From Escherichia phage UE-S5a, in sequence record PP175015.1: a stretch of 64,000 nucleotides of DNA. One strand, 5' to 3'. The notes under the pieces were generated by a model. It was not told where the DNA came from, made no database searches, and worked only from the letters and a program-made list of their open reading frames with translations. The first letter of the stretch is position 1. Each line of letters starts with the position of its first letter. Shown piece after piece: positions 2,540-58,005 of this stretch. A program made the position numbers and the translations under genes.

Positions 2540-3166
2540 TTATATAGAGTTTACTGTTTGCATTGCCCTAATTGATACTGCTGTTAGGGTAATTACTTGT
2601 CCTGAGATATTAAACATACCTAACTGAATACCGTCTACCATGAAAGGGTCAGTTGAACCAAGTGTGTAAGTAGCCAGTACGTTATCTCTGTTAGCAATGT
2701 CTGTACCCTGTACTTTAACACTAGCATCTGAACCTACTATCGTAATTCCATTGGTTCGTCTTGTTTGTGTTCTCCATTCCCTTGCTGTACCTGCACCACC
2801 TGCAATAATTCCTGATATACGAACACTGAACATTACCTGGGTATTCCTGGTTCTAATGGGGAACTTAAGATTTCCTTCTTCAATTGTTAGTGCTGCTGTA
2901 CCTCCAGGTGATTTAGTTATCCCTGGTAATGAAAAGTAATTGAACCAGGATTGGTCATTTACTGCCTGGCTCCCGGTCCATGTATACAAGTCCAGAAGAA
3001 ATGTGTCTTCTAACTCTGTTGGTGGGAAAGGTAGTAGTTCTGGGGGGATCTCTGAGATGTTATTAGCAGAAACTATTCGTTCCCCATAACTTCCCACGAC
3101 CAACAATCCCCCCTTCATTTTGCACACAACATCCCTACCACTTTGGAAAATATCTTTAATAGACAT
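2540..3166 (-). CDS. Hypothetical protein encoded antisense to the late module
   Basis: Track ORF 2540..3193; start moved to second ATG (MSIKDIF...) preceded by GAGG at 6 nt; no recognisable motif. Confidence 0.45.
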   Translation of the reverse strand: MSIKDIFQSGRDVVCKMKGGLLVVGSYGERIVSANNISEIPPELLPFPPTELEDTFLLDLYTWTGSQAVNDQSWFNYFSLPGITKSPGGTAALTIEEGNLKFPIRTRNTQVMFSVRISGIIAGGAGTAREWRTQTRRTNGITIVGSDASVKVQGTDIANRDNVLATYTLGSTDPFMVDGIQLGMFNISGQVITLTAVSIRAMQTVNSI

Positions 3167-3290
3167 AGTTACCTCGCAGTTGATACCAGACACTATGTCT
3201 GGATGTATCCCATCATACTAAGTATTATCTAAGAGTCATCTTATGATACGACCCTATTGGGGTTCTTAACTTTACAACTACGGTAATATT

Positions 3291-3620
3291 ATGAATGAAT
3301 CGGGCGAACTGCTTCTAGTCAGACTGGAGGAACGATTGAAGACTCTGTTTGAGAATCAGACGAGAGACAGACAGGACCGTGAGAAACTGGAGGAAACTCT
3401 GGGAGAATTACGGGATTCAATCAATGACATAGGCAATAGACTAAAAAATGTGGAGGATAGCTTAGCTAAGAATGAACCTACTATTGAAGAGTTCATCACC
3501 ATTAAGCATAAAGTTGTTGGTGCTGGAATTTTTGGTAAGTGGGTATGGGCTGGAGCAGGTGCAATTATTGGTGTATTGGCTGCTGCAAGACGGGAGATAT
3601 TCGCATGGTTCGCAGGCTAA
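3291..3620 (+). CDS. Coiled-coil protein with C-terminal transmembrane helix (holin/antiholin-associated candidate)
   Basis: 109 aa; charged coiled-coil N-terminus, C-terminal VVGAGIFGKWVWAGAGAIIGVLAAA; sits at head of lysis cassette. Confidence 0.45.
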   Translation: MNESGELLLVRLEERLKTLFENQTRDRQDREKLEETLGELRDSINDIGNRLKNVEDSLAKNEPTIEEFITIKHKVVGAGIFGKWVWAGAGAIIGVLAAARREIFAWFAG

Positions 3621-8864: not shown

Positions 8865-10067
8865 ATGTTAAACTATAACGCTCCAATTGACGGTCAGAAA
8901 TCTAGCATTGATGGTGCTGGTTCCGATCAGATGAATACCTTTTACTGGCTGAAGAAAGCTATTATTCAGTCTCGTAAAGACCAGTACTTCATGCCACTGG
9001 CTAACACCATTAACATGCCTAAGAACTATGGTAAGACTGTTAAGGTGTATGAGTACGTTCCACTGCTCGACGATAAGAACATTAACGACCAGGGCATTGA
9101 TGCTAATGGTGCTACCATCGTTAATGGTAACCTGTATGGTTCTTCTAAAGACGTAGGTAACATCACTTCCAAACTGCCTCTGCTGACAGAGAATGGTGGT
9201 CGTGTTAACCGTGTAGGCTTTACCCGTCTGTCTCGTGAAGGCTCCATCCATAAGTTCGGTTTCTTCTACGAATTTACCCAAGAGTCCCTGGACTTTGATT
9301 CTGATGATCAACTGAAAGAACACCTGTCTCGCGAACTGATGAACGGTGCTGTACAGTTGACTGAAGCTGTTCTCCAGAAAGACCTGCTTGCTGCTGCTGG
9401 TACTGTATTGTATGCAGGTGCTGCTACTTCTGATGCTACCATCACCGGTGAAGGTTCTACTCCGTCTGTAGTTTCTTATAAGAACCTGATGCGTCTTGAC
9501 CAGATTCTTACTGAGAACCGTACCCCGACTCAGACTACTATTATCACTGGTTCTAAACTGACTGATACCAAAGTACTTGGTGGTACTCGTGTAATGTACG
9601 TTGGTTCTGAATTGGTTCCAGAACTGAAAGCGATGAAAGATCTGTTCGGTAACAAAGCATTCATCGAAATTCAGCACTATGCTGATGCCGGTACTCTGAT
9701 GAATGGTGAAGTTGGTTGTATCGACAAGTTCCGTATTATCCAGGTTCCTGAGATGCTGCATTGGGCAGGTGCTGGTGCTCAGGCTACTTCTAACCCAGGC
9801 TATCGTTCTACTATGGTTGGTGGTCAGGAACACTACGACGTATTCCCGATGCTGGTAGTTGGTGATGACTCCTTCTCTACCATTGGCTTCCAGACTGATG
9901 GTAAGTCTGTTAAGTTCTCCATCATGACTAAGATGCCTGGTAAAGAAACTGCTGACCGTAATGACCCGTATGGTGAAACTGGCTTCAGTTCTATCAAGTG
10001 GTACTACGGTATCCTGGTTAAACGCCCAGAACGTCTGGCTATGATTAAGACTGTTGCTCCTCTGTAA
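8865..10067 (+). CDS. Major capsid protein (N4 gp56-like)
   Basis: 400 aa; high-usage codons; followed by a strong terminator; position matches N4 MCP. Confidence 0.75.
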
Positions 10068-28405: not shown

Positions 28406-28440
28406 ATTGATTATCCAATTATTAATACTCAAATAAAAAA

Positions 28441-28472
28441 GTCCCCCAGAGTGACGGCTCCAGGGGACTTAG
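28441..28472 (-). terminator. Candidate terminator downstream of the tRNA cluster (minus-strand sense)
   Basis: A-run on + strand followed by GTCCCC...GGGGAC inverted repeat (T-run in minus sense). Confidence 0.35.
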
Positions 28473-28713
28473 TACTATTTACCCATAGCTGGGAGGCTTT
28501 TGGTTCTTACCACGAAGACAGTCCACGCTGACTAGACTTGGGATTGATAGTCCCGTTCCTGTGGTAATTACTCAGGCTAGGATTTAAGGAGTTCCTATTC
28601 TCCAGCGAAATTCCCGTCGAGGGGAATAACAATACAATAGCAGTCACTGGACTGTCTTACCAGTGTTGTCTTTAGAGTGCGATGCAATCAGGACTATGTT
28701 ACTGCTGAATGGG

Positions 28714-28787
28714 TGTCCACTACTGGATTTGAACCAGTGACTTTCCGATTATTAGTCGGTTGCTTTCCCCGTCTAAGCTAAGCGGAC
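28714..28787 (-). tRNA. tRNA; anticodon loop reads CUAAUAA, i.e. anticodon AAU (formally Ile, unusual A34)
   Basis: Hand fold: acceptor GTCCGCT/AGTGGAC (one G-U), D-stem GCTT/AAGC, anticodon stem CCGA/TCGG, T-arm ACTGG-TTCAAAT-CCAGT; no encoded CCA. Confidence 0.55.
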
Positions 28788-28793
28788 ATAATA

Positions 28794-28869
28794 TGGTTAC
28801 CCGGACAGGATTCGAACCTGCGTCCTAGTTGGTTTACTAGTGGGGCTTTACCACTAAGCCTACCGGGTA
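28794..28869 (-). tRNA. tRNA with encoded CCA; anticodon arm non-canonical by hand fold (identity unresolved)
   Basis: Perfect acceptor TACCCGG/CCGGGTA, discriminator A, CCA encoded; D-stem GGCT/AGCC; T-arm GCAGG-TTCGAAT-CCTGT; anticodon region folds as CTAGT/ACTAG with a 6-nt loop. Confidence 0.5.
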
Positions 28870-29170
28870 TTAATAGGTGAGTCATGCCAGACTCTAACTG
28901 GCTCCTTCTTCGCAATCCTTACATACCCCTACATAATTATTGCGTTAAGCTTTTTTGTTTAAGTTTAAGTGAAGGCGTTCTTGCTGACTCATAATTGGGT
29001 TGGGCGTTTGACGAATGACTAGTTCGTTACTACCCGTTTGCCATAAGTACCTGGCGACTTTGGTTTGAGGTGGGAGTCCGAGTCCTGTACAGCCTTACCG
29101 TTCACACATTGGCAGCGTATCTAGAGTTGCACTTCCGGCAACTGGATTTAACTGTTACACCTCAAATAGG

Positions 29171-29245
29171 CAGTGGGGGATGGAATCGAACCATCAGTAT
29201 TAAGTCTTATTCGTGCACCAAGCACGCTAGTAGATTACTCTACCG
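29171..29245 (-). tRNA. tRNA-like element (canonical T-arm, acceptor pairing not resolved)
   Basis: T-arm GATGG-TTCGATT-CCATC present in minus sense; no matching 5' acceptor found by hand within 75 nt. Confidence 0.3.
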
Positions 29246-29315
29246 GAGGGAATCGAACCCTATCTACTTCACCAGACCCACCATAATTCTTCCAATTTAG
29301 AGTAGCATTGTCACG
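29238..29315 (-). tRNA. tRNA-like element (T-arm motif only)
   Basis: AGGG-TTCGATT-CCCT in minus sense; cloverleaf not resolved. Confidence 0.25.
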
Positions 29316-29367
29316 GTGGGTGCTTTAAATGCCGGGAAACATTTAAATATACAATGCTACTTTGAAT

Positions 29368-29445
29368 TGGTTATCAGTGAAGGATTCGAACCTCCGGTTG
29401 GAGTCTATAGCTTACCGCAGCAGCCCTCCAATCTAGCGGTGTCAC
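29368..29445 (-). tRNA. tRNA-like element with encoded CCA; possible long or interrupted tRNA
   Basis: CCA + discriminator + acceptor 3' strand ACTGATA + T-arm GGAGG-TTCGAAT-CCTTC; exact complement of the acceptor (TATCAGT) only found about 120 nt away at 29485-29491. Confidence 0.3.
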
Positions 29446-29493
29446 ACTTAGTCCAAACTTGAACATGTCAAGCCATCTCGTGCAACTGATAAT

Positions 29494-29560
29494 TGGTTCC
29501 GGCGTCTGGACTCGAACCAGAACACTCATGCCGTGCACGACACTAGTACCTACACCGGAA
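29494..29560 (-). tRNA. Short tRNA-like element with encoded CCA
   Basis: CCA, acceptor TCCGGTG/CGCCGGA, T-arm TCTGG-TTCGAGT-CCAGA; only about 66 nt, too short for standard D + anticodon arms. Confidence 0.3.
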
Positions 29561-29626
29561 TTAATTGCCAGGGATTCCACCTGGCTCCATCTGTTTTTAT
29601 AGTCACTCAGATATCGTCTGGACTGT

Positions 29627-29704
29627 AGGCATGGGTGGGAATCGAACCCACAAACCATTCAGCACTGTAGCCTCACGCTCTACCTATTTGAGCTATCACA
29701 TACC
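29627..29704 (-). tRNA. tRNA-like element
   Basis: T-arm GTGGG-TTCGATT-CCCAC, D-arm-like GCTC-AAATAGGTA-GAGC, acceptor GGTATGT/CCATGCC (6/7 pairs); anticodon arm not resolved. Confidence 0.35.
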
Positions 29705-30384
29705 ATTGATTAACTCCCCGTTTCTAATACATGGACGGGGACACTCCACGGTCGTTTGATAATCAGGACGACTCACTCCTGACTGACGCTTGGCTTATTA
29801 GGCTGCCATCAGAACAACATCATCGTTTGCATTTATGTTATTGGTTCGTTTCTAAAAAACCGCATAATCGCTTACGAAAACTATCAAAGAGTACACTAGC
29901 TCTGGGCCACGCTTGTGGACATCGGCCTACCTTCCACAGCTAATCAACTAATGCACTCACTGATAGCCCATAATAGGGGGGAGGGGACGAATCCTCCCTT
30001 TATACCCTATATTGCATGTAAGATCTAACAGTTCGATGTTGTAGGTAGCTAGGCTATCCGACATTTAACCCAGCCCATATAGGGGCTTATGTGATTAGAA
30101 TGCTCAACATTGAGCGGTTAGTTTGATAAGGGATCTGAAGCCTTATCCTAAAGATACTAACCTTTGGGATATAGCCTAAGATTCAGAAATGGCCCCTATA
30201 GGGAGAGGCCATTGATTAACCCGAATGTTGCTTTACATTTGCTGTGATAACCAATTCTTAAAATAGTCTGTCTGACGGATGGGGGTCCACCCCTAGCGTC
30301 AGTGCCATACGGCAAAGATTAAGTTAAGAAAGGTTATGATAGGAGTTCCTATCTCAAAGGATTCTAACAGAACCCTTCACGATA

Positions 30385-40461: not shown

Positions 40462-41772
40462 TTAGAAAGTTAGACCACCGTACTTACTGGCAAGATTGCC
40501 ATAGAACACTACTCGCTTACGGGCACGAGACACAGCGACGTAAAGCAGACGGGCAACCATATCTGGTTGGCGACAGCTTGAGAGGTCATTTGCATCAATG
40601 AAGATTGTGTCGTAAGTAGAGCCTTGTGATTTATGGACAGTACATGCATGAGTAGCACGCAGGTCTGGAATGGTTTCTTTAAGACGGAAGTAAGGTTCCC
40701 AGTTCTTCTCCTTACCTAACCACTTAACCAAACGGTTGAAGTAGTCTGGGTCAGTAGGTACTGGAACTTCACTTACAATGCCACCATAGCCTAGGTCAAG
40801 AGTACTATCACGAACTTCCAGTTCCAGGTCACCTGTAACCTTAATCATGCGAGTACTACTATCCTGGTCAATGAGTTTTACGTCCTGTTCAATAGATAAA
40901 CGATTATCCACACCCAAGCGAACAGCAGAGTTAGAAACTAACTGTTCACCGATGGAGTATTCACCCACATAACCGTTAGCTTCACGAATGTAGTTATTGT
41001 AATTAATAACCTGGTCATTTGTGTAAGCAACAATACGGCTGTTGGTAGGTTGAGTGAAGTGACTGAGAACCAATTTCTCCATCTCTTCCTCCTGTACCCA
41101 GTCAATGATACCTGGGATACATTTAATTGGCAGGAAGCCTGTCTTACCTTCCACCGTATCACGCAATTGCTGGTGCAATACTTTAAGTTCCGGTGCATCA
41201 GTACGCATCTGTTCAGTCAGATAGTGTGTTGGGATATTACCTGCGTATACCGGAGACTTATTCTCTTTAACAGGCAAAAGCTGAGAAGCATCACCTACAA
41301 ATACCAGTTTGCACTGGTGAGTACCTTCACGAGCATACTTAAGTAACTGACGGTCAATCATGGATGCTTCGTCTACGAAGATGATTTTGTTCTTCTTAAT
41401 ATTGAATGATTTAGATGGTACGACATTAGCCTCGCCAGTCTTAAAATCATTCTTAACAATCAGACCCTGGAAGGAGTGATAGGTAGATGTTGGACGTCCT
41501 GTAGCTTGAGCCAGAACTTCAGCAGCTTTGTTCGTGGTCGCAGTCATGACGACTTCGTTATACAGGGGCTTGGTTCCCATGAGAGAACAAGTTTCCATGT
41601 ATGCAGGCATAGTGTCATCAATGAGGTGCGACATCAGGAATGTCTTACCAGTACCACCTGGGCCTGAAATTCCAAATTCGGTAGCATTAGGGTCGAGCAG
41701 GAAGTCGAAGAACTCCTTCGCAACCGCTTCTTGCCCCTTGTTCAGTGGGGCTTTGGTAGGTTTGGAAAACAT
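40462..41772 (-). CDS. SF1 DNA helicase (Dda/RecD-like)
   Basis: Walker A GPGGTGKTF; Walker B IIFVDEASMI; C-terminal HKSQGSTYD helicase motif. Confidence 0.75.
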   Translation of the reverse strand: MFSKPTKAPLNKGQEAVAKEFFDFLLDPNATEFGISGPGGTGKTFLMSHLIDDTMPAYMETCSLMGTKPLYNEVVMTATTNKAAEVLAQATGRPTSTYHSFQGLIVKNDFKTGEANVVPSKSFNIKKNKIIFVDEASMIDRQLLKYAREGTHQCKLVFVGDASQLLPVKENKSPVYAGNIPTHYLTEQMRTDAPELKVLHQQLRDTVEGKTGFLPIKCIPGIIDWVQEEEMEKLVLSHFTQPTNSRIVAYTNDQVINYNNYIREANGYVGEYSIGEQLVSNSAVRLGVDNRLSIEQDVKLIDQDSSTRMIKVTGDLELEVRDSTLDLGYGGIVSEVPVPTDPDYFNRLVKWLGKEKNWEPYFRLKETIPDLRATHACTVHKSQGSTYDTIFIDANDLSSCRQPDMVARLLYVAVSRARKRVVFYGNLASKYGGLTF

Positions 41773-47549: not shown

Positions 47550-47874
47550 ATACTACAGCATCTGAAATTTGGTCATCGGTTGGTTCAACTAATTGACCAT
47601 TCTCATCATACATTTCTTTCAGAAGTGCATTCAGTTCAGCCATACCAGCCAATACCATTTCCTTACTTGGTTCCAGCCATAACTTACGTTCCTCTGCCAA
47701 TGCAGCAATGCACATACACAGGGACGCAATATTTGCTGGGCAAGCAGCAATATCACCAGTTACCACAATTTCACTAAGTGGAACAGCTTTACCGGTTTTA
47801 CTATGAATAACTTCAGGATTAATCATGGATTTGCTCCAGGTTATGAGCAGGAATAGGGAAGCATGGATAGTCAC
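47512..47874 (-). CDS. Hypothetical protein
   Basis: 120-aa track ORF; true start probably internal. Confidence 0.35.
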   Translation of the reverse strand: MTIHASLFLLITWSKSMINPEVIHSKTGKAVPLSEIVVTGDIAACPANIASLCMCIAALAEERKLWLEPSKEMVLAGMAELNALLKEMYDENGQLVEPTDDQISDAVVFVLQAMAEKRNG

Positions 47875-48061
47875 CGGTAGGGTCCAGTGTTACTGATACA
47901 TGCAGTGTATTTGTCATTTGGGTTAACATCAGAGCAGCATTGAAATCGTCCTGGATACAGGCATATACAATGTCACCCTTCTCTCCCTCACACATTACAG
48001 GTGTGTCTTTGATACGGTATTTAGCAGGCATATGCCCTCCTAAAAGAGTTAATAGAATCAA
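47819..48061 (-). CDS. Hypothetical protein
   Basis: 80-aa ORF. Confidence 0.3.
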   Translation of the reverse strand: MILLTLLGGHMPAKYRIKDTPVMCEGEKGDIVYACIQDDFNAALMLTQMTNTLHVSVTLDPTGDYPCFPIPAHNLEQIHD

Positions 48062-51283: not shown

Positions 51284-52458
51284 TATTTCATTCCTTTAGG
51301 GATATGAACTACCTCCCCAAAAGGTACGGTAGCATTGGGATTATTCAGAACACACCAGATGATAGGAATATCAAATGGTAATTCTTCCATTGGACGAACA
51401 TACATATCGGAGAATATGATTGCAGCGGTTGGTTTATTCTTAATAATCCACTCGCGTACTGGTTCCAGGTTTGTACCACCACGACCGGTAATCTTAATCT
51501 CTTCAAAAGTATCTTCTTCAGTGATGTCTATCTCTTCTTGGATAATATCGTCGAAGGTAATTAAGGACATCTTCTTAGGATTGAACTGGCTCTTAACGTA
51601 GGCAACCTCTGAGTTAAAACGCAGAGAGTCAGCACTACTAATAGAACCAGATACATCCTCAAAGTAGGCTAAGTGTCGTAAGCGTCCTTCATCATCTTCC
51701 ATGGAAGGTAGATAGATGTCAGTAAAACGACGGTTAGGTCTGGCCCACGTATAATGAGTATCGTCAATGTCGGTAAAGAAGTTCATGAGGACTTCCTGCC
51801 ATGGAACCACTGGTTTAAGGAATTGGGTAATAACCTCTTCCATACGACCAGCACCCTTACCGGGCATCTGTCCACCAGCCATTTTCTGGCTCTGCATTGC
51901 TCGTACTACGTTGTTGACGACAGCACCCTGGGACTGCCCCGAAGTGGGGGATTTCATGTCGCCAGCAAGACCTGCTCCAGCACCCCCTGACGGCTTCTGC
52001 CTTTTCTGAGGGTTCTTCATCAGGTCATCGTAGATGTCTTCTTCGACCCATCCTTTATATTGAGGGTCTTTGCAAATACCTTTATCAATGCCAGTGAACT
52101 TATAACCATCTTCTTCTAACTGAAGGTTAATGAAGTGGTCACACGCCTGGTTCCAGATTTCTGGGTCACGGCTTCCACGACGGATGCCATGCAGATATGC
52201 CACATGCCAAAGTTCATGCATTAACACTGTTTCTCTGGCATCTGGACACATCCAGATAAAGAAATCTGGATTGAAGTGAAGTTCTATCCCATCAGTACAT
52301 GCAGTGGGACAATTCTCACGTTTCCATGAGAACTTAAGACTACATAGTAATGAACCAAAGAACGCAGCACTGCGTCCGAGAAATGCGTTGGCCTGTATTC
52401 TATCGTATTCCCTCATTAACTGTTCATCAGTGAGGTTATGTGGTGGTATGTTATTCAT
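51283..52458 (-). CDS. VWA-domain protein with N-terminal HExxH metallopeptidase-like domain (DUF2201-type)
   Basis: HELWHVAYLHG (HExxH) in N-terminal half; C-terminal half has VWA-like layout; partner of the AAA ATPase below. Confidence 0.55.
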   Translation of the reverse strand: MNNIPPHNLTDEQLMREYDRIQANAFLGRSAAFFGSLLCSLKFSWKRENCPTACTDGIELHFNPDFFIWMCPDARETVLMHELWHVAYLHGIRRGSRDPEIWNQACDHFINLQLEEDGYKFTGIDKGICKDPQYKGWVEEDIYDDLMKNPQKRQKPSGGAGAGLAGDMKSPTSGQSQGAVVNNVVRAMQSQKMAGGQMPGKGAGRMEEVITQFLKPVVPWQEVLMNFFTDIDDTHYTWARPNRRFTDIYLPSMEDDEGRLRHLAYFEDVSGSISSADSLRFNSEVAYVKSQFNPKKMSLITFDDIIQEEIDITEEDTFEEIKITGRGGTNLEPVREWIIKNKPTAAIIFSDMYVRPMEELPFDIPIIWCVLNNPNATVPFGEVVHIPKGMK

Positions 52459-52934
52459 TAAGATGCTCCATGATTTATATGGTAACCCAATAATTTTTCT
52501 GCTTCCTTTCTGGCTGTAATGGCCTCTTGTTTACTGTTAAACTTTCCTAAGTAAATTTGTTTACCATTATCATTTATATGGGCAGCCCAGATTTTATCTC
52601 GGGTGTGCCAGTAAACTCCTGTCACACCTGATGTATTTGTAATTCTCTTGGTTTGATTTTTGCAATTAATCGAGTTTGTTACTAAACGGAAATTGCTTGG
52701 GTAATTATTTAATCTATTATGGTCAATATGGTCTACCTGCATACCGTCAGGAATTGGTCCAATCTCCATTTCATAAATTATGCGGTGAACTAAATGCATT
52801 TTCTTGTTACATTTAACACGCAAATACCCACTGTTATCCAAACAACCGGCAATGGCACCTGCTTTTACGCAGCCCCTGCTTACTTTCCAGTAGAGGGAAC
52901 CATTGCTATAAACAAATAGTTCATGCCAATTCAT
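52458..52934 (-). CDS. HNH-AP2 homing endonuclease
   Basis: HNH core QVDHIDHNRLNN...LVTNSIN; AP2-type domain NTSGVTGVYWHTRDKIWAAHINDNGKQIYLGKFNSKQEAITARKEAEKLLGY. Confidence 0.8.
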   Translation of the reverse strand: MNWHELFVYSNGSLYWKVSRGCVKAGAIAGCLDNSGYLRVKCNKKMHLVHRIIYEMEIGPIPDGMQVDHIDHNRLNNYPSNFRLVTNSINCKNQTKRITNTSGVTGVYWHTRDKIWAAHINDNGKQIYLGKFNSKQEAITARKEAEKLLGYHINHGAS

Positions 52935-54025: not shown

Positions 54026-54352
54026 TTAAGATTTAATACATGGGTAGGCTGTATCAATTGCCATCAGAACCATGTCTGATGGTACTTTTACTGCATTAAC
54101 CTTTCTGTCATACAGAATAATAGTGGCTACTTTGTCAAAGACATTTCCTAACTTCAAACTATCTGGTACGCAGTTCTTACCTGCTTCTACACCCATAGTA
54201 ACCATGCCCATAAAGTAACCCTGGTTCACAAAGTTTGCATTATTGGCTTTGTAGTCAGCAGCAGCGTCTAACAGAGTTTCACGGCTGGATGCTTGAGCAT
54301 TGAATGACAGAACTGATAAAGCTACTACAGCAACAGCAATTAAAGTTTTCAT
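54026..54352 (-). CDS. Secreted/periplasmic hypothetical protein
   Basis: N-terminal signal peptide MKTLIAVAVVALSVLSFNAQA. Confidence 0.45.
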   Translation of the reverse strand: MKTLIAVAVVALSVLSFNAQASSRETLLDAAADYKANNANFVNQGYFMGMVTMGVEAGKNCVPDSLKLGNVFDKVATIILYDRKVNAVKVPSDMVLMAIDTAYPCIKS

Positions 54353-54980: not shown

Positions 54981-55085
54981 TTCCTGGCTCCAGAATGTTT
55001 AAGTCAAAAAAAGACCTCCCTTCATCTGGGAGGTCAAGCTTGGGAGTTTTATATCAGGGTTTACAACCCCAAATAAAGGCTACCT

Positions 55086-55919
55086 TTATTCTACAACAGT
55101 AATAGCGATGGTTACATCGACCTTACCGTTGGTAACTACTACAGAAGTAGCTTCACCAGCAGCCACTGGTTTAACCGTCAATACGTTACCGGCAATGGTA
55201 GCCGTAGCACGGGCAGAATCTGGGGTAGTCTTAATAGACAAAGTACCAGCAGATGAACCAACAGGCATAGCAGCAATGGTTACAGTCTTACCGGCAGCAG
55301 TATCATCAGCAACAGACAGAGCCAGTGAATCAGGAGTAGCTACCAGTGAGCTTGCTTCATAGTAGCCTACTGCCAGCAACGACGTATCTTCTACAGTGGT
55401 TCCATTGGCATCAGTAACAATCACTTTATAAGTACCAGCAGAAGCAGCGGTTACGTCATTAAGGGTTAATGTTGCAGTAGCAGCAGATGGGTTAGTACTA
55501 GAGCTAATATCAGTGAATGCTGCACCAGCAGTATCAGCTTTGAACTGCCATTTATAAGTAAATGGTGCTTTACCGCCTGCTACATCAACATGCCAGTTAA
55601 TATCTTCGCCTTCGATAGCAGAGATTACACGAGGCAGTTTAGTAGCAACAGTCAGTCGTGGAGTAGCTTTCATGTCAATAGAGATGGCTTGCATATCCAC
55701 GATGTTGTTAGGCCAGAAGCCTGCTTCAGCAGGGTTTTTAGCAGAACGTTTATACAGCAGATCACGTACACCGTGAAAGATAACTAAACTATCCGGGTAA
55801 GTGGCATCCGGATGCACAAAAGTACCTACCTCTACGGAACCACCCGGGATAGAACCCCCTGCATCCAGTACAGTTGCAACATTGGTGGTTTTGTTAAAAC
55901 CTACTTTTAAAGTTGGCAT
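55086..55919 (-). CDS. Ig-like-domain capsid decoration-like protein (N4 gp17-like by position)
   Basis: Track ORF extends into a terminator; ATG 55919 preceded by GAGG; C-terminal Thr/Ala/Val-rich Ig-like repeats; sits just downstream of RNAP II genes as in N4. Confidence 0.5.
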   Translation of the reverse strand: MPTLKVGFNKTTNVATVLDAGGSIPGGSVEVGTFVHPDATYPDSLVIFHGVRDLLYKRSAKNPAEAGFWPNNIVDMQAISIDMKATPRLTVATKLPRVISAIEGEDINWHVDVAGGKAPFTYKWQFKADTAGAAFTDISSSTNPSAATATLTLNDVTAASAGTYKVIVTDANGTTVEDTSLLAVGYYEASSLVATPDSLALSVADDTAAGKTVTIAAMPVGSSAGTLSIKTTPDSARATATIAGNVLTVKPVAAGEATSVVVTNGKVDVTIAITVVE

Positions 55920-55964
55920 ATGAATTTCCTCATAAGTAAATAGCAGGATTAGTATACATGACAT

Positions 55965-55995
55965 GTAAAAAAATAAACCCTCCGTTAAGAGGGTT
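55965..55995 (-). terminator. Rho-independent terminator (minus sense)
   Basis: AACCCTC-cgttaa-GAGGGTT preceded on + strand by A-run. Confidence 0.5.
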
Positions 55996-56191
55996 AGTTG
56001 TTTACACAGTAGATAGCAAAAGCTATCCATCCTGCCATTACAAAGCATCCTAGTGAGTATGCTCCATAGTAGCAGTAAGCAAACTTAGACTTGTGGGCAC
56101 GAACTATCGTAGCCAGAATCAGTACAGATAAAACTATCAGTATTAGCTGAGAGATTACTTCAAAATTGATAAGCATAGTTGCTACCTCCAA
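55994..56191 (-). CDS. Small membrane protein
   Basis: 65 aa, two hydrophobic helices. Confidence 0.35.
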   Translation of the reverse strand: MEVATMLINFEVISQLILIVLSVLILATIVRAHKSKFAYCYYGAYSLGCFVMAGWIAFAIYCVNN

Positions 56192-56234
56192 GCAAAAAAT
56201 AAAGCCCCACTCCCGAAGGAATGAGGCTAGTTTA

Positions 56235-57452
56235 TTAACTTAATGCATAATCTGTTTCTAGAATGTCTTGCCAGAGGCTGTCATCCAGCTTACCAGCAGA
56301 GAACTCTTGTCCCAGTACTTGAGACAGAATGAAGCCCAGTAAGTCACTCTTAGCAATGTCAGACAGAATCTGATTGTACTGACGACGCAGGTCATTACCA
56401 TAGTTAGGGTGGCAACGGAAGCAATCATGTACAGTCATTACAGGGAATGGTTTCTTAGGCATAGTGTCGATCATATCTGCTACTACTTGACGGTCTACCA
56501 ATGCAATAGTATTCGGGTCAAGGAAGTCTAGGATAGACAGCGACAGGAATCCTGACCTTTCATAATGATTCCAGATTTCCATAGTCTTCTCTTGGTTCCC
56601 CTCAATAACGGGGTATTCACTTGGCCCGATATCGCACAGTTCCCGTACATAGGCAACCAGTTTAGGGTCGAAGTTACAACGACGTAGCATCTCACGTACT
56701 ACCATCCCATCAATAGAGTGAGTGATGTTAGCAGAGAGCATACGGGTCTTCTCTTCAGTACCCTGAACCATACGAGTGATGTCAAATGGTTTACCCAAGA
56801 AGTTAACAGTCTGTACTTCAAGAACCATGACTTTAATGACAGCATGGAAGTTGTCAGGGAGTACCCATATGTAACGGTTAGCATCCGGGTTACCACATTG
56901 CAGTAAGAACTTGTTAAGTGCCCAAGGACCACTTGCAACTGTTTCCATTACATTTTCAAAAGTCTTGAGACGGATACCTTCCCCGAATACTTCTTTAGGT
57001 TTGGCTTCTGAACCGTAGAATGCAGTCATAACTGCCTGCTTGGTATCACTACGTTTAATACGGGATGCTTCACCAAGGATGTCCAGCATCTTGTGATATA
57101 TAACTGTATAAGCATCACGTCGTAATGGCTTACCATTCTCTCCCATGTAATTAACTACGTTACACAGTTCAGCAGCAGAGCGGTCACCAGTCAGGCAGGC
57201 CAGTAACTGCAAGCCTGATGATGTAGCATCCAGGGCTACGGCATATCCGATAGGCTTACCAGCTTTCATATCTTTCCATGCGTTTACACCAGCATAGAAC
57301 AGTGCAGATTCCTCAGCTTCATCTACCAGATTAAGCAAGTTAGCTTCATTCTCATCGAACCAAGCAATACGCTCATCCCAGGTCTTTTTATCCAGACCAT
57401 AGTTATTGGCGATGTCTACTTTCAGGTATTCTTTAGCGGTTAACAGTTGCAT
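56235..57452 (-). CDS. Phage RNA polymerase II catalytic subunit (T7-like, N4 gp16-like)
   Basis: Start moved to ATG 57452 (AAGGAA RBS); T7 RNAP motifs: ALDATSSGLQ (A), RSDTKQAVMTAFYGS (B), VHDCF (C). Confidence 0.75.
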   Translation of the reverse strand: MQLLTAKEYLKVDIANNYGLDKKTWDERIAWFDENEANLLNLVDEAEESALFYAGVNAWKDMKAGKPIGYAVALDATSSGLQLLACLTGDRSAAELCNVVNYMGENGKPLRRDAYTVIYHKMLDILGEASRIKRSDTKQAVMTAFYGSEAKPKEVFGEGIRLKTFENVMETVASGPWALNKFLLQCGNPDANRYIWVLPDNFHAVIKVMVLEVQTVNFLGKPFDITRMVQGTEEKTRMLSANITHSIDGMVVREMLRRCNFDPKLVAYVRELCDIGPSEYPVIEGNQEKTMEIWNHYERSGFLSLSILDFLDPNTIALVDRQVVADMIDTMPKKPFPVMTVHDCFRCHPNYGNDLRRQYNQILSDIAKSDLLGFILSQVLGQEFSAGKLDDSLWQDILETDYALS

Positions 57453-57498: not shown

Positions 57499-58005
57499 TT
57501 ATTGACCGTGACGGTTAGTATAGCCAGCACCATTCTGGTTCAAGGCTTCTAACATGTCGGCTCGTGCATCACATGCTTGTTGGAATGCGAACTCGTAGCC
57601 GTATTTCTTAACTGAGAATACTTTACACCTCTGTTTCTTTGTGATGTTGTCCGTACATGTAGCACGCCAGAATAACCCCTTTGGTGAATCCCATAGAGAT
57701 ACACCAGTTACCCCAGATTTATTGTCTGAACGTTTAGTAGAGTTACGCAGGTTGACTACAATGGGAACACATCGCAAGTTACACCAGCGGCAGTCCGTTC
57801 TGATACCGTTGATGTGGTCAATTGTATAACCAGCAGGGATAGATCTATGCTTCATTTCCCACAACCAACGGTGAAGGTATAAGATTTTATTTCCACGAGA
57901 GATGCGAATGTACCCAGTGGCACTATTCGCTGCCTCCGGTGGATGGGCTACAGCAAGTTCATCAACTGACTTGTTCCAGTAGCCCATTGGCATACGCTCT
58001 TTCAT
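57499..58005 (-). CDS. HNH-AP2 homing endonuclease inserted between the RNAP II subunit genes
   Basis: HNH core YTIDHINGIRTDCRWCNLR; AP2 domain NKSGVTGVSLWDSPKGLFWRATC...KYGYEFAFQQACDARADMLEAL; paralog of 52458-52934. Confidence 0.8.
   Translation of the reverse strand: MKERMPMGYWNKSVDELAVAHPPEAANSATGYIRISRGNKILYLHRWLWEMKHRSIPAGYTIDHINGIRTDCRWCNLRCVPIVVNLRNSTKRSDNKSGVTGVSLWDSPKGLFWRATCTDNITKKQRCKVFSVKKYGYEFAFQQACDARADMLEALNQNGAGYTNRHGQ

What the first reader, a model, noticed from the sequence alone, without database searches (positions are those of the whole stretch)
55086..55995. Ig-domain decoration-like structural gene in the early/middle region with its own terminator-bounded unit
A Thr/Ala/Val-rich Ig-like protein is encoded on the early/middle strand directly after RNAP II, mirroring N4 gp17. 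It is preceded by a strong terminator and a GAGG RBS, implying separate expression timing from the other virion genes.
Basis: partly seen in the sequence, partly recalled or inferred. Interest (0 to 1): 0.4.

Follow-up and report, generated by a model that had tools for sequence, protein, structure and literature searches.

The report
N4 gp17-type capsid decoration gene
This is the ordinary, already characterised capsid decoration protein of N4-like phages (the ortholog of N4 gp17), sitting in its usual place after the phage RNA polymerase II genes; only the timing of its expression remains unmeasured.

Summary
A 277-aa gene lies on the minus strand at 55086..55919. It has a GAGG ribosome-binding site 8 nt before the ATG and a hairpin plus T-run terminator on each side. 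The window is identical to Escherichia phage UE-M3 (Gamaleyavirus, Schitoviridae).

The protein is 69% identical over its full length to N4 gp17. That protein's position on the N4 capsid has been solved by cryo-EM (PDB 9E99). The next closest match is Moo19 gp28 (PDB 9D7Z). An AlphaFold model shows three beta-sandwich domains, and its best structural matches are those same chains. The capsid protein it would bind is also conserved.

Its position after the RNAP II large-subunit gene, on the early/middle strand, recurs in all seven other N4-like genomes whose annotation I checked. [quoted passage not shown] They are not special to this gene, because neighbouring genes are bracketed the same way. 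The upstream hairpins probably mark the end of the early region.

"Separate expression timing" is plausible but unmeasured. A conserved -10-like box (xATAxT-N6-GC) in coliphage and Klebsiella-phage relatives is a candidate dedicated promoter.

Verdict: already known, low interest.

The parts
55086..55919 (-). CDS of the capsid decoration protein (277 aa plus stop), ortholog of N4 gp17
   Evidence: Translation. 100% identical to UE-M3 WWE95554.1. PHROG 2973 E=3e-99. PDB 9e99_J E=5e-116 and 9d7z_J E=4e-95. 69% identity to N4 gp17.
55656..55919 (-). Domain I (about aa 1-88), the N-terminal capsid-anchor domain. It is the only part conserved across Schitoviridae genera.
   Evidence: tblastn hits to Klebsiella, Alcaligenes, Achromobacter, Pseudomonas and Burkholderia phages cover only aa 1-~57 to 1-~98. 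Invariant HPDxTYPDS..I.HGV motif. [quoted passage not shown] AF2 strands at 3-35, helix 44-56, strand 78-82.
55362..55655 (-). Domain II (about aa 89-186), I-set/Ig_3-like beta sandwich
   Evidence: Pfam Ig_3 and I-set at aa 93-180, just under the gathering scores. AF2 pLDDT about 90. Titin and Dscam Ig domains appear among the fold hits. In N4, DII lies on the MCP P-domain.
55089..55361 (-). Domain III (about aa 187-277), C-terminal Ig-like domain, solvent-exposed in N4
   Evidence: AF2 pLDDT 94-97, all-beta. Weak similarity to the lambda gpV Ig-like domain (2l04, E=0.59) and PHROG 41. In N4, DIII is flexible and makes minimal capsid contact. It was not modelled in Moo19.
55928..55931 (-). 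Ribosome-binding site GAGG, 8 nt before the ATG
   Evidence: Sequence. AGGA is invariant in the alignment of 11 relatives.
55943..55956 (-). Conserved -10-like element TATACT-N6-GC in the 5' UTR. Candidate promoter; function not shown.
   Evidence: Columns xATAxT and the GC 6 nt downstream are invariant in 11 otherwise divergent UTRs from Gamaleyavirus, N4, KP8-like phages and L027. The element is absent from Moo19, Frozen, QDWS595 and Zuri. The sigma-70 consensus scan does not pick it up. It is not enriched in the window.
55966..55995 (-). Upstream intrinsic-terminator-like hairpin (55995..55976) plus T-run. It overlaps the stop codon of the preceding 60-aa ORF.
   Evidence: dG -10.8, z -4.1. 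A hairpin plus T-run is found at the same position in 18 of 19 related loci, with different stem sequences.
55006..55035 (-). Downstream intrinsic-terminator-like hairpin (55035..55013) plus TTTTTTT
   Evidence: dG -15.7, z -3.4. My scan reported a hairpin plus T-rich tail downstream of the gene in all 19 related loci; a few are weak, for example L028 and QDWS595.
55994..56176 (-). 60-aa hydrophobic ORF between RNAP II and the decoration gene (a Gamaleyavirus feature, absent in N4)
   Evidence: PHROG 12530 E=2e-38. Annotated CDS UEM3_065. No Pfam hit.
56203..56228 (-). Terminator-like hairpin right after the RNAP II large-subunit gene; likely the end of the early unit
   Evidence: 11-bp stem, dG -18.5, z -5.4. 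gp15 and gp16 are early products in N4.
56235..57452 (-). RNAP II large subunit (N4 gp16 homolog), upstream neighbour giving the synteny
   Evidence: PHROG 2051 E=7e-175. Annotation.

Best explanation
The gene encodes the capsid decoration ('cement') protein of a Gamaleyavirus and is the ortholog of coliphage N4 gp17.

By homology, monomers bind the outside of the mature T=9 HK97-fold capsid, three per asymmetric unit (about 175-180 per head). The conserved N-terminal domain DI sits on the quasi-3-fold axes. DII lies flat on the P-domain of a capsid subunit. The C-terminal Ig-like domain DIII is largely free in solvent. In N4 the protein is dispensable for infectivity but protects heads against stresses such as EDTA and DNase. 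DIII may add a surface-adhesion role.

The gene is a short monocistronic unit on the early/middle strand, just beyond the RNAP II genes. Inferred, not shown: the hairpins upstream end the early (virion RNAP) transcripts. The gene is then read either by terminator read-through or RNAP II middle transcription, or from a weak sigma-70-type promoter marked by the conserved TATACT/CATAAT-N6-GC element in the 5' UTR. The downstream terminator closes the unit and probably stabilises the mRNA.
For: Shown here:
- The window is identical to phage UE-M3.
- Full-length homology to N4 gp17: 69% identity; PDB 9e99_J E=5e-116 and Moo19 9d7z_J E=4e-95; PHROG 2973 E=3e-99.
- The AF2 model (mean pLDDT 89.4) has three beta domains. 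Its top Foldseek hits are 9e99_K/J, 9lbz_q and 9d7z_J/K.
- The cognate major capsid protein matches the N4 and Moo19 MCP chains at E about 1e-247.
- Synteny after the RNAP II large subunit holds in N4, Moo19, Frozen, KP8, QDWS595, Zuri and HN05.
- Only DI is conserved across genera, while DII and DIII vary in number and type.
- Flanking hairpin plus T-run sites are kept, with different stem sequences, in 18/19 (upstream) and 19/19 (downstream) loci.

From papers:
- N4 gp17: three copies per asymmetric unit, DI on quasi-3-fold axes, DIII flexible (PMC11768535).
- gp17 is not needed for infectivity but stabilises heads (PMC7602432).
- About 175 copies per N4 head (PMC3715699).
- Moo19 gp28 is listed among virion proteins and modelled on the capsid (PMC11654681).
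- The KP8 homolog follows RNAP2 'as usual for N4-like phages' (PMC6950046).
- gp15 and gp16 are early products, and middle transcripts cover the left half of the N4 genome (PMC4496689).
Against: Nothing contradicts the identification. No virion proteomics or structure exists for UE-M3 itself.

The cement role in N4 rests partly on unpublished mutant data cited in the papers. The review also lists a possible adhesion role.

The expression model is inference only, because no transcript mapping for this gene was found. The -10-like box has no usable -35 and was not called by the consensus scan. The motif is not enriched in the window: 3 intergenic hits to a loosened pattern, against my rough estimate of about 3.6 by chance. 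It is missing from Moo19-, Erwinia-, Alcaligenes- and Pseudomonas-phage homologs, where the T-run abuts the RBS.
Confidence: 0.93

Rival explanations
1. The protein is mainly an adhesin rather than a cement. In this reading it is a Hoc-like surface protein whose exposed Ig-like domains (above all DIII) bind glycans on mucus or on the host surface. Capsid stabilisation would be secondary.
For: In N4, DIII makes minimal capsid contact and the authors assign it an 'uncertain, non-structural function'. DII and DIII are the variable parts between phages of different hosts, while DI is conserved. The review lists gp17 (N4) under both stability and host adhesion. The Moo19 authors leave the function open.
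Against: In N4, DI and DII lie flat across inter-capsomer interfaces at every quasi-3-fold axis, a cementing geometry. gp17-less N4 is reported to be less stable in EDTA and DNase. No binding partner is known.
Confidence: 0.25
2. The gene has its own late promoter. The conserved TATACT/CATAAT-N6-GC element after the terminator would be a weak, -35-less sigma-70 promoter activated by the phage SSB. The decoration protein would then be made together with the other virion proteins despite lying on the early/middle strand.
For: The xATAxT and GC columns are invariant, with fixed 6-nt spacing, in 11 otherwise divergent 5' UTRs. The element lies 7-10 nt after the T-run and 37-38 nt before the ATG, or 59 nt in L027. 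N4-type late promoters only weakly resemble the sigma-70 consensus, and in LUZ7 roughly a fifth of late starts lie on the early/middle strand. In N4, virion structural proteins are not made in the presence of rifampicin.
Against: There is no -35 and no TGn extension, and the consensus scan does not call it. The motif is at chance frequency in the window. It is absent where the T-run abuts the RBS in Moo19, Frozen, QDWS595 and Zuri, so it cannot be the general solution. It could instead be an RNA-level element or an RNAP II signal. I could not establish whether the 32-kDa protein was among the proteins scored in the rifampicin experiments.
Confidence: 0.3
3. The gene is a middle gene expressed purely by read-through or RNAP II transcription from upstream. 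The flanking hairpins would only attenuate transcription and stabilise the mRNA, and the decoration protein would accumulate before capsids exist.
For: In N4, middle RNAP II transcripts overlap across the left half of the genome. In class-2 relatives there is no room for a promoter between the T-run and the RBS. The upstream hairpin is the weakest locally, at -10.8 kcal/mol. LUZ7 shows extensive time-dependent terminator read-through. Terminator followed by an RBS is common on this strand.
Against: It does not explain the invariant -10-like box in class-1 relatives. The rifampicin observation on virion proteins, if it includes gp17, argues for host RNAP.
Confidence: 0.45
4. The gene encodes a fibritin/neck-whisker, tail or enzyme protein, as many GenBank records annotate the homologs.
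For: Annotations under the tblastn hits include 'fibritin (wac)', 'neck whiskers protein', 'tail protein' and 'kappa-carrageenase precursor'.
Against: The model is all-beta with three Ig-like domains and no coiled coil. The solved homologs sit on the capsid shell. There are no Pfam or PDB hits to fibritin or glycosidases.
Confidence: 0.02

Closest known systems
Coliphage N4 gp17 ('32 kDa protein', PDB 9E99/9LBZ/9LD7), capsid decoration protein of Schitoviridae
   Same: 69% identity over the full length, with the same length to within 2 aa. Same three-domain beta architecture. Same position after the RNAP II large subunit on the early/middle strand. Same terminator, 5' UTR box and GAGGAAATT RBS layout. 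A conserved MCP partner.
   Different: A 60-aa membrane-protein ORF with its own terminator is inserted between RNAP II and the gene. The -10-like hexamer is TATACT rather than CATAAT. The downstream gene differs: N4 has the gp18 superinfection-exclusion homolog, and the window has a 62-aa ORF.
Shigella phage Moo19 gp28 (PDB 9D7Z)
   Same: 62% identity, same three-domain layout and same synteny. It is modelled on the capsid and listed among the virion proteins.
   Different: In Moo19 the T-run of the upstream terminator abuts the RBS (24 nt from stem end to ATG) and there is no -10-like box. The authors interpret the C-terminal domain as a possible Hoc-like trimer spike.
T4 Hoc (PDB 3SHS) and T5 pb10 Ig-like decoration proteins
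   Same: Non-essential monomeric capsid-surface proteins built from Ig-like domains. The 'Hoc-like head decoration' label comes from PHROG 2973.
   Different: No significant sequence similarity to Hoc (E=0.23). The capsid anchor is N-terminal here and C-terminal in Hoc. gp17-type proteins lie flat at quasi-3-fold and quasi-2-fold positions, whereas Hoc projects from hexamer centres.
Shorter DI-plus-one-Ig-domain homologs in other Schitoviridae (KP8 gp26 171 aa, QDWS595 gp57 167 aa, HN05 ORF26 174 aa, Zuri gp27 252 aa)
   Same: Homologous DI anchor, same locus after RNAP II, same flanking terminators.
   Different: They have one fewer domain (two rather than three in the 167-174 aa forms) or unrelated C-terminal domains, so the exposed part of the protein is modular.

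Membership tests
N4 gp17-type capsid decoration protein (Schitoviridae; PHROG 2973) | Full-length sequence homology to N4 gp17 | tested here: met
   69% identity over 277/279 aa. phmmer versus PDB 9e99_J E=4.6e-116, aa 1-277 to 1-279. PHROG 2973 E=3.3e-99, profile positions 1-310 of 310.
N4 gp17-type capsid decoration protein (Schitoviridae; PHROG 2973) | Three tandem beta-sandwich (Ig-like) domains DI-DII-DIII joined by linkers | tested here: met
   AF2 model with mean pLDDT 89.4; strands group into about 1-85, 90-185 and 191-276. Best Foldseek hits are N4 gp17 and Moo19 gp28 chains, followed by multi-Ig proteins.
N4 gp17-type capsid decoration protein (Schitoviridae; PHROG 2973) | Gene located after the RNAP II large-subunit gene on the early/middle strand, apart from the late virion genes | tested here: met
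   Window gene order. Same order in N4, Moo19, Frozen (three small ORFs between), KP8, QDWS595, Zuri and HN05. One 60-aa ORF intervenes here.
N4 gp17-type capsid decoration protein (Schitoviridae; PHROG 2973) | Cognate N4-type major capsid protein (T=9 HK97 fold in N4 and Moo19) encoded in the same genome | tested here: met
   The MCP at 8865..10067 matches 9d7z_A (E=1e-248) and 9e99_A (E=5e-247) over its full length. The T number itself was not tested.
N4 gp17-type capsid decoration protein (Schitoviridae; PHROG 2973) | Physical presence on the capsid at quasi-3-fold and quasi-2-fold positions, three copies per asymmetric unit | not testable with these tools
   Shown for N4 and Moo19 by cryo-EM. 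Needs virion mass spectrometry or cryo-EM of UE-M3.
N4 gp17-type capsid decoration protein (Schitoviridae; PHROG 2973) | Dispensable for infectivity but increases head stability | not testable with these tools
   Reported for N4. Needs a deletion mutant.
T4 Hoc family | Sequence homology to Hoc | tested here: not met
   3shs_A E=0.23, 14.3 bits, a short stretch only.
T4 Hoc family | [quoted passage not shown] | tested here: not met
   The cross-genus conserved domain, which contacts the capsid in N4, is N-terminal. Hoc's anchor is C-terminal.
Pfam Ig_3 (PF13927) / I-set (PF07679) | Score at or above the Pfam gathering threshold | tested here: inconclusive
   This sequence scores Ig_3 26.9 bits against a cut-off of 30, and I-set 22.6 against 23.7. 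Most close homologs carry a precomputed PF13927 hit, and the fold is Ig-like.
Fibritin / neck whisker (wac), as annotated in several GenBank records | Trimeric alpha-helical coiled coil | tested here: not met
   The model is all-beta apart from one 13-residue helix. There are no fibritin hits in Pfam or PDB.
Intrinsic (rho-independent type) terminators flanking the gene | G+C-rich hairpin directly followed by a T-run on the coding strand, and conserved | tested here: met
   (z -4.1 and -3.4). Found in 18/19 loci upstream and 19/19 downstream, with at least 9 different stem sequences. Actual termination by vRNAP, RNAP II or host RNAP is not testable here.
Sigma-70-type promoter in the 5' UTR | -35 and -10 hexamers with 16-18 nt spacing | tested here: not met
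   The consensus scan called no site on the minus strand at 55920-56000. Only a -10-like hexamer with a conserved GC 6 nt downstream is present.

The most novel reading that the evidence does not exclude
In the coliphage and Klebsiella-phage branch of the Schitoviridae examined here, the decoration gene carries a private, -35-less sigma-70-type promoter (xATAxT-N6-G) placed right after the early-region terminator. Host RNAP, activated by the phage SSB, would then make this one virion protein from the 'wrong' strand in step with the late capsid genes. As far as I know, that would be the first rightward late promoter described in N4-type coliphages. Relatives such as Moo19 lack the element and would rely on read-through instead.
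Probability: 0.3. Interest if true: 0.3.

Novelty: already known. Interest (0 to 1): 0.1.

Why it matters
It matters little beyond correct annotation. The protein family, its structure on the capsid, its non-essential stabilising role and its unusual genomic position are all published for N4 and its relatives.

Three points are useful:
1. Many GenBank records mislabel the homologs as fibritin, neck whiskers, tail protein or carrageenase. They should be called gp17-type capsid decoration proteins.
2. The conserved N-terminal anchor with swappable exposed Ig domains makes this a natural display scaffold.
3. How and when a virion protein encoded among the early/middle genes is transcribed is still unmeasured. 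The conserved terminator and -10-like box give a specific site to test.

Tried and rejected
Transcript data: I searched the paper library for transcriptome or promoter-mapping data covering gp17 or its homologs in N4-like phages. I found only LUZ7 and LIT1 data, and those Pseudomonas phages lack the decoration gene.

Original N4 structure paper: Choi et al. 2008 is not held. Its results are cited second-hand.

N4 middle-promoter consensus: I could not recover it from the held papers, so no RNAP II promoter scan was possible.

Sigma-70 scan: no promoter was called upstream of the gene.

Motif recurrence: I tested whether the conserved -10-like/GC motif recurs at other intergenic sites in the window. 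Only 3 hits to a loosened pattern turned up, about what my rough estimate predicts by chance. One lies upstream of the other minus-strand virion gene, 2540..3166. I rejected this as evidence.

Codon usage against the MCP or late genes: the gene ranks high among minus-strand genes (0.575, second to SSB at 0.619), but the spread is too small to assign a temporal class.

RNA families and structure: the Rfam scan of 54.5-56.5 kb gave only chance-level hits. The 5' UTR has no significant structure (z -0.19).

It ran after those rows were removed.
Full report
**1. What is at the coordinates**

The finding spans 55086-55995. The gene is on the minus strand. The mechanical ORF extends to 56048, but the functional start is the ATG at 55919-55917. 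GAGG lies 8 nt upstream of it, at 55931-55928. This start matches the annotated CDS of the identical GenBank record. The product is 277 aa.

Ala, Thr and Val together make up 39% of its residues, against 22% for all proteins of the window.

The hairpin overlaps the stop codon of the preceding small ORF. A second terminator-like site follows the gene at 55035..55013 plus TTTTTTT.

Both hairpins fold far better than shuffled sequence (z = -4.1 and -3.4). The upstream one, at -10.8 kcal/mol, is the weakest of the three in the neighbourhood. The hairpin after RNAP II is -18.5 and the downstream one is -15.7. Terminator-like sites are about three times more frequent than in shuffles across 50-64 kb (27 against 9.1 +/- 3.1).

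- The end coordinate is not coding sequence.
- The terminator is moderate rather than strong.
- The gene is not directly after RNAP II. A 60-aa hydrophobic ORF (55994..56176, PHROG 12530) with its own upstream terminator (56228..56203) lies between them.

**2. What the window is**

The window is base-for-base identical to Escherichia phage UE-M3, PP301342.1, positions 9674-73673. UE-M3 is a Gamaleyavirus (Schitoviridae, Enquatrovirinae).

The minus strand carries the early and middle functions: RNAP II subunits, DNA polymerase, helicase, primase, SSB and rIIA/B. The plus strand carries the late virion genes: portal, major capsid protein and the 3450-aa virion RNAP.

**3. What the protein is**

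- PHROG 2973 ('Hoc-like head decoration') matches end to end at E=3e-99.
- tblastn finds the protein in 129 phage records, all N4-like.
- The large protein database returns 183 relatives, many of them on contigs of about 70-73 kb.
- Against the PDB, the best matches are the '32 kDa protein' of the N4 capsid reconstructions (9E99, 9LBZ, 9LD7; E=5e-116, full length) and chain J of the Moo19 reconstruction (9D7Z; E=4e-95).
- Identity to N4 gp17 is 69%.

An AlphaFold2 model built on 23 homologs has mean pLDDT 89.4. It shows three beta-rich domains at about residues 1-85, 90-185 and 191-276. Its best structural matches in the PDB are the N4 gp17 and Moo19 gp28 chains, followed by tandem-Ig proteins such as titin and Dscam. 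The low global TM-scores reflect different inter-domain angles, which also differ between the N4 chains.

Pfam Ig_3 and I-set match residues 93-180 just under their gathering scores.

The partner protein is conserved as well. The major capsid protein at 8865..10067 matches the Moo19 and N4 MCP chains at E about 1e-248 and 1e-247.

**4. How it most likely works (by homology)**

The 2.45 A N4 capsid structure shows three gp17 monomers per asymmetric unit lying flat on the shell. DI sits on every quasi-3-fold axis. DII lies on the P-domain of one capsid subunit. DIII is flexible and largely free. The authors conclude that gp17 reinforces the capsid and that DIII may have an accessory role (PMC11768535).

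A review reports that gp17 is not needed for infectivity but protects against DNase I and EDTA. It lists 'stability, host adhesion' as functions (PMC7602432). About 175 copies decorate each N4 head (PMC3715699). Moo19 gp28 is in that paper's virion protein table and is modelled on the capsid for residues 1-183 (PMC11654681).

My comparison adds one point that fits this picture. Only DI is conserved across genera, including an invariant HPDxTYPDS...I.HGV motif. Hits in Klebsiella, Alcaligenes, Achromobacter, Pseudomonas, Burkholderia and Stenotrophomonas phages stop at about residue 57-98. The homologs there are 167-252 aa long, with different C-terminal modules. So DI is the capsid anchor and the outer domains are exchangeable.

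**5. The genomic position and the 'terminator-bounded unit'**

The gene follows the RNAP II large-subunit gene, on the same strand, in N4, Moo19, KP8, QDWS595, Zuri and HN05. It does so in Erwinia phage Frozen too, with three small ORFs in between. [quoted passage not shown]

The flanking terminators are conserved as structures, not as sequences. My scan found a hairpin plus T-run upstream in 18 of 19 loci and downstream in 19 of 19, with at least nine different stem sequences; a few of the downstream calls are weak. Within the Gamaleyaviruses, one variant differs by a change on both sides of the stem (CTC/GAG against CAC/GTG). Selection therefore maintains these hairpins.

They are not a peculiarity of this gene, however. 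On the same strand, terminator-then-RBS junctions precede several other genes: 40462..41772, 47819..48031 and 55994..56176. Because gp15 and gp16 are early products in N4, the hairpins just beyond RNAP II are most simply the end of the early, virion-RNAP-transcribed unit. That step is my inference.

**6. Expression timing: not settled**

The 5' UTRs fall into two classes.

Class 2 comprises Moo19 and a metagenomic relative, Erwinia phage Frozen, Alcaligenes phage QDWS595 and Pseudomonas phage Zuri. Here the stem end is only 22-27 nt from the ATG and the T-run abuts the RBS. That leaves no room for a promoter after the terminator, so these genes must be read from upstream, by read-through or from a promoter overlapping the hairpin.

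Class 1 comprises the window, other Gamaleyaviruses, N4, KP8-like Klebsiella phages and contig L027. Here the distance is 53-77 nt. An alignment of 11 UTRs is only 58% identical overall. Even so, it has invariant columns forming xATAxT (TATACT or CATAAT), followed after exactly 6 nt by GC. That is the geometry of a sigma-70 -10 box with a G start.

Against a promoter reading:
- There is no -35 and no extended -10.
- The consensus scan does not call the site.
- The motif occurs at about chance frequency in the window's non-coding DNA.

In its favour:
- N4-type late promoters only weakly resemble the sigma-70 consensus.
- In LUZ7 about a fifth of late starts lie on the early/middle strand.
- N4 virion structural proteins are reported not to be made in rifampicin. 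I could not establish whether the 32-kDa protein was among those scored.

Middle RNAP II transcripts overlap across the left half of the N4 genome, and LUZ7 shows extensive terminator read-through. Middle-phase expression is therefore at least as likely. I found no transcript data for this gene in any N4-like phage. Codon usage does not discriminate between the options.

**7. Comparison with known families**

The gene passes every test for the N4 gp17 family that can be run here: sequence, fold, synteny and cognate capsid protein.

It is not a member of the T4 Hoc family. It has no significant sequence similarity to Hoc (E=0.23). Its anchor is at the opposite end of the protein. In N4 it lies flat rather than projecting. 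'Hoc-like' is therefore a functional label only.

The 'fibritin', 'neck whiskers', 'tail protein' and 'kappa-carrageenase' annotations attached to homologs in GenBank have no support from the fold or from any profile.

**8. Verdict**

The gene family, its structure, its role and its odd location are published, and the exact sequence is in GenBank with a decoration-protein annotation. The inference about separate timing is reasonable but untested. The terminator bracketing does not by itself imply it.

The only loose end of modest interest is the conserved -10-like element, which offers a defined site for promoter mapping.

Noticed in passing
L018:1258-3097 (Escherichia phage phi G17, NC_070870.1): At the decoration-gene position this Gamaleyavirus has two tandem genes. 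One is a 413-aa ORF whose N-terminus carries a weak DI-like motif (G.V.IG.YHH...V.FH.V.DLLY; pairwise E=1e-4). The other is a 198-aa protein with a clear DI (40% identity over aa 1-81, E=7e-18). Both lack the Ig-like DII and DIII of the window protein. They may form a two-protein decoration system or a module swap. The 413-aa ORF is also preceded by a terminator and a TATACT box.
   Followed up: partly
window 55057-55070 (minus strand): A small hairpin, GGGGTT-GTAA-ACCC, with no T-run lies between the stop codon of the decoration gene and its terminator. It is conserved in the other Gamaleyavirus loci, phi G17 and L027, and partly in KP8. Its folding energy is not significant on its own (z -0.3). 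Its function is unknown; it could be an RNA processing or stability element.
   Followed up: partly
window 57499-58005 and 52458-52934 (minus strand): Two HNH homing-endonuclease genes are present. One sits between the two RNAP II subunit genes, where N4 has only a 47-bp gap. It shares base 58005 with the small-subunit gene, and the mechanical large-subunit ORF (start 57533) overlaps it, while the annotated large-subunit start is at 57452. The other lies between the ATPase gene and the VWA-domain gene.
   Followed up: no
window 28406-30384 (minus strand): There are long non-coding gaps (308, 504 and 679 nt) around the tRNA cluster. ARAGORN finds only tRNA-Ile and one tRNA with an odd anticodon loop. 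The GenBank record also lists a tRNA-Cys at 29626-29705 that ARAGORN did not call. Degenerate tRNAs or other small RNAs may be present.
   Followed up: partly
window 2540-3335: One virion or tail gene (2540..3166, annotated 'tail needle knob', no Pfam hit) lies on the early/middle strand inside the late region. It is separated by a 169-bp divergent intergenic region from the next plus-strand late gene (3336..3620), which is followed by the lysis genes. Its upstream region contains TTCATAAT, similar to the -10-like box of the decoration gene in N4 and KP8. This single match is within chance expectation.
   Followed up: partly
window 54026-54352 (minus strand): A 108-aa protein with a signal-peptide-like N-terminus is annotated 'Tai4' in GenBank. 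It has a sub-threshold Pfam match to Rap1a type VI amidase-immunity proteins (E=0.002, 19 bits against a cut-off of 27.7). A phage-encoded periplasmic immunity-like protein might act in superinfection or lysis control.
   Followed up: no
phage records under (e.g. PV029541.1, PP989839.1, OM982646.1, KT321317.2): Homologs of this decoration protein are annotated inconsistently in GenBank as fibritin (wac), neck whiskers protein, tail protein, kappa-carrageenase precursor or hypothetical protein. The solved N4 and Moo19 structures show that they are capsid decoration proteins.
   Followed up: yes
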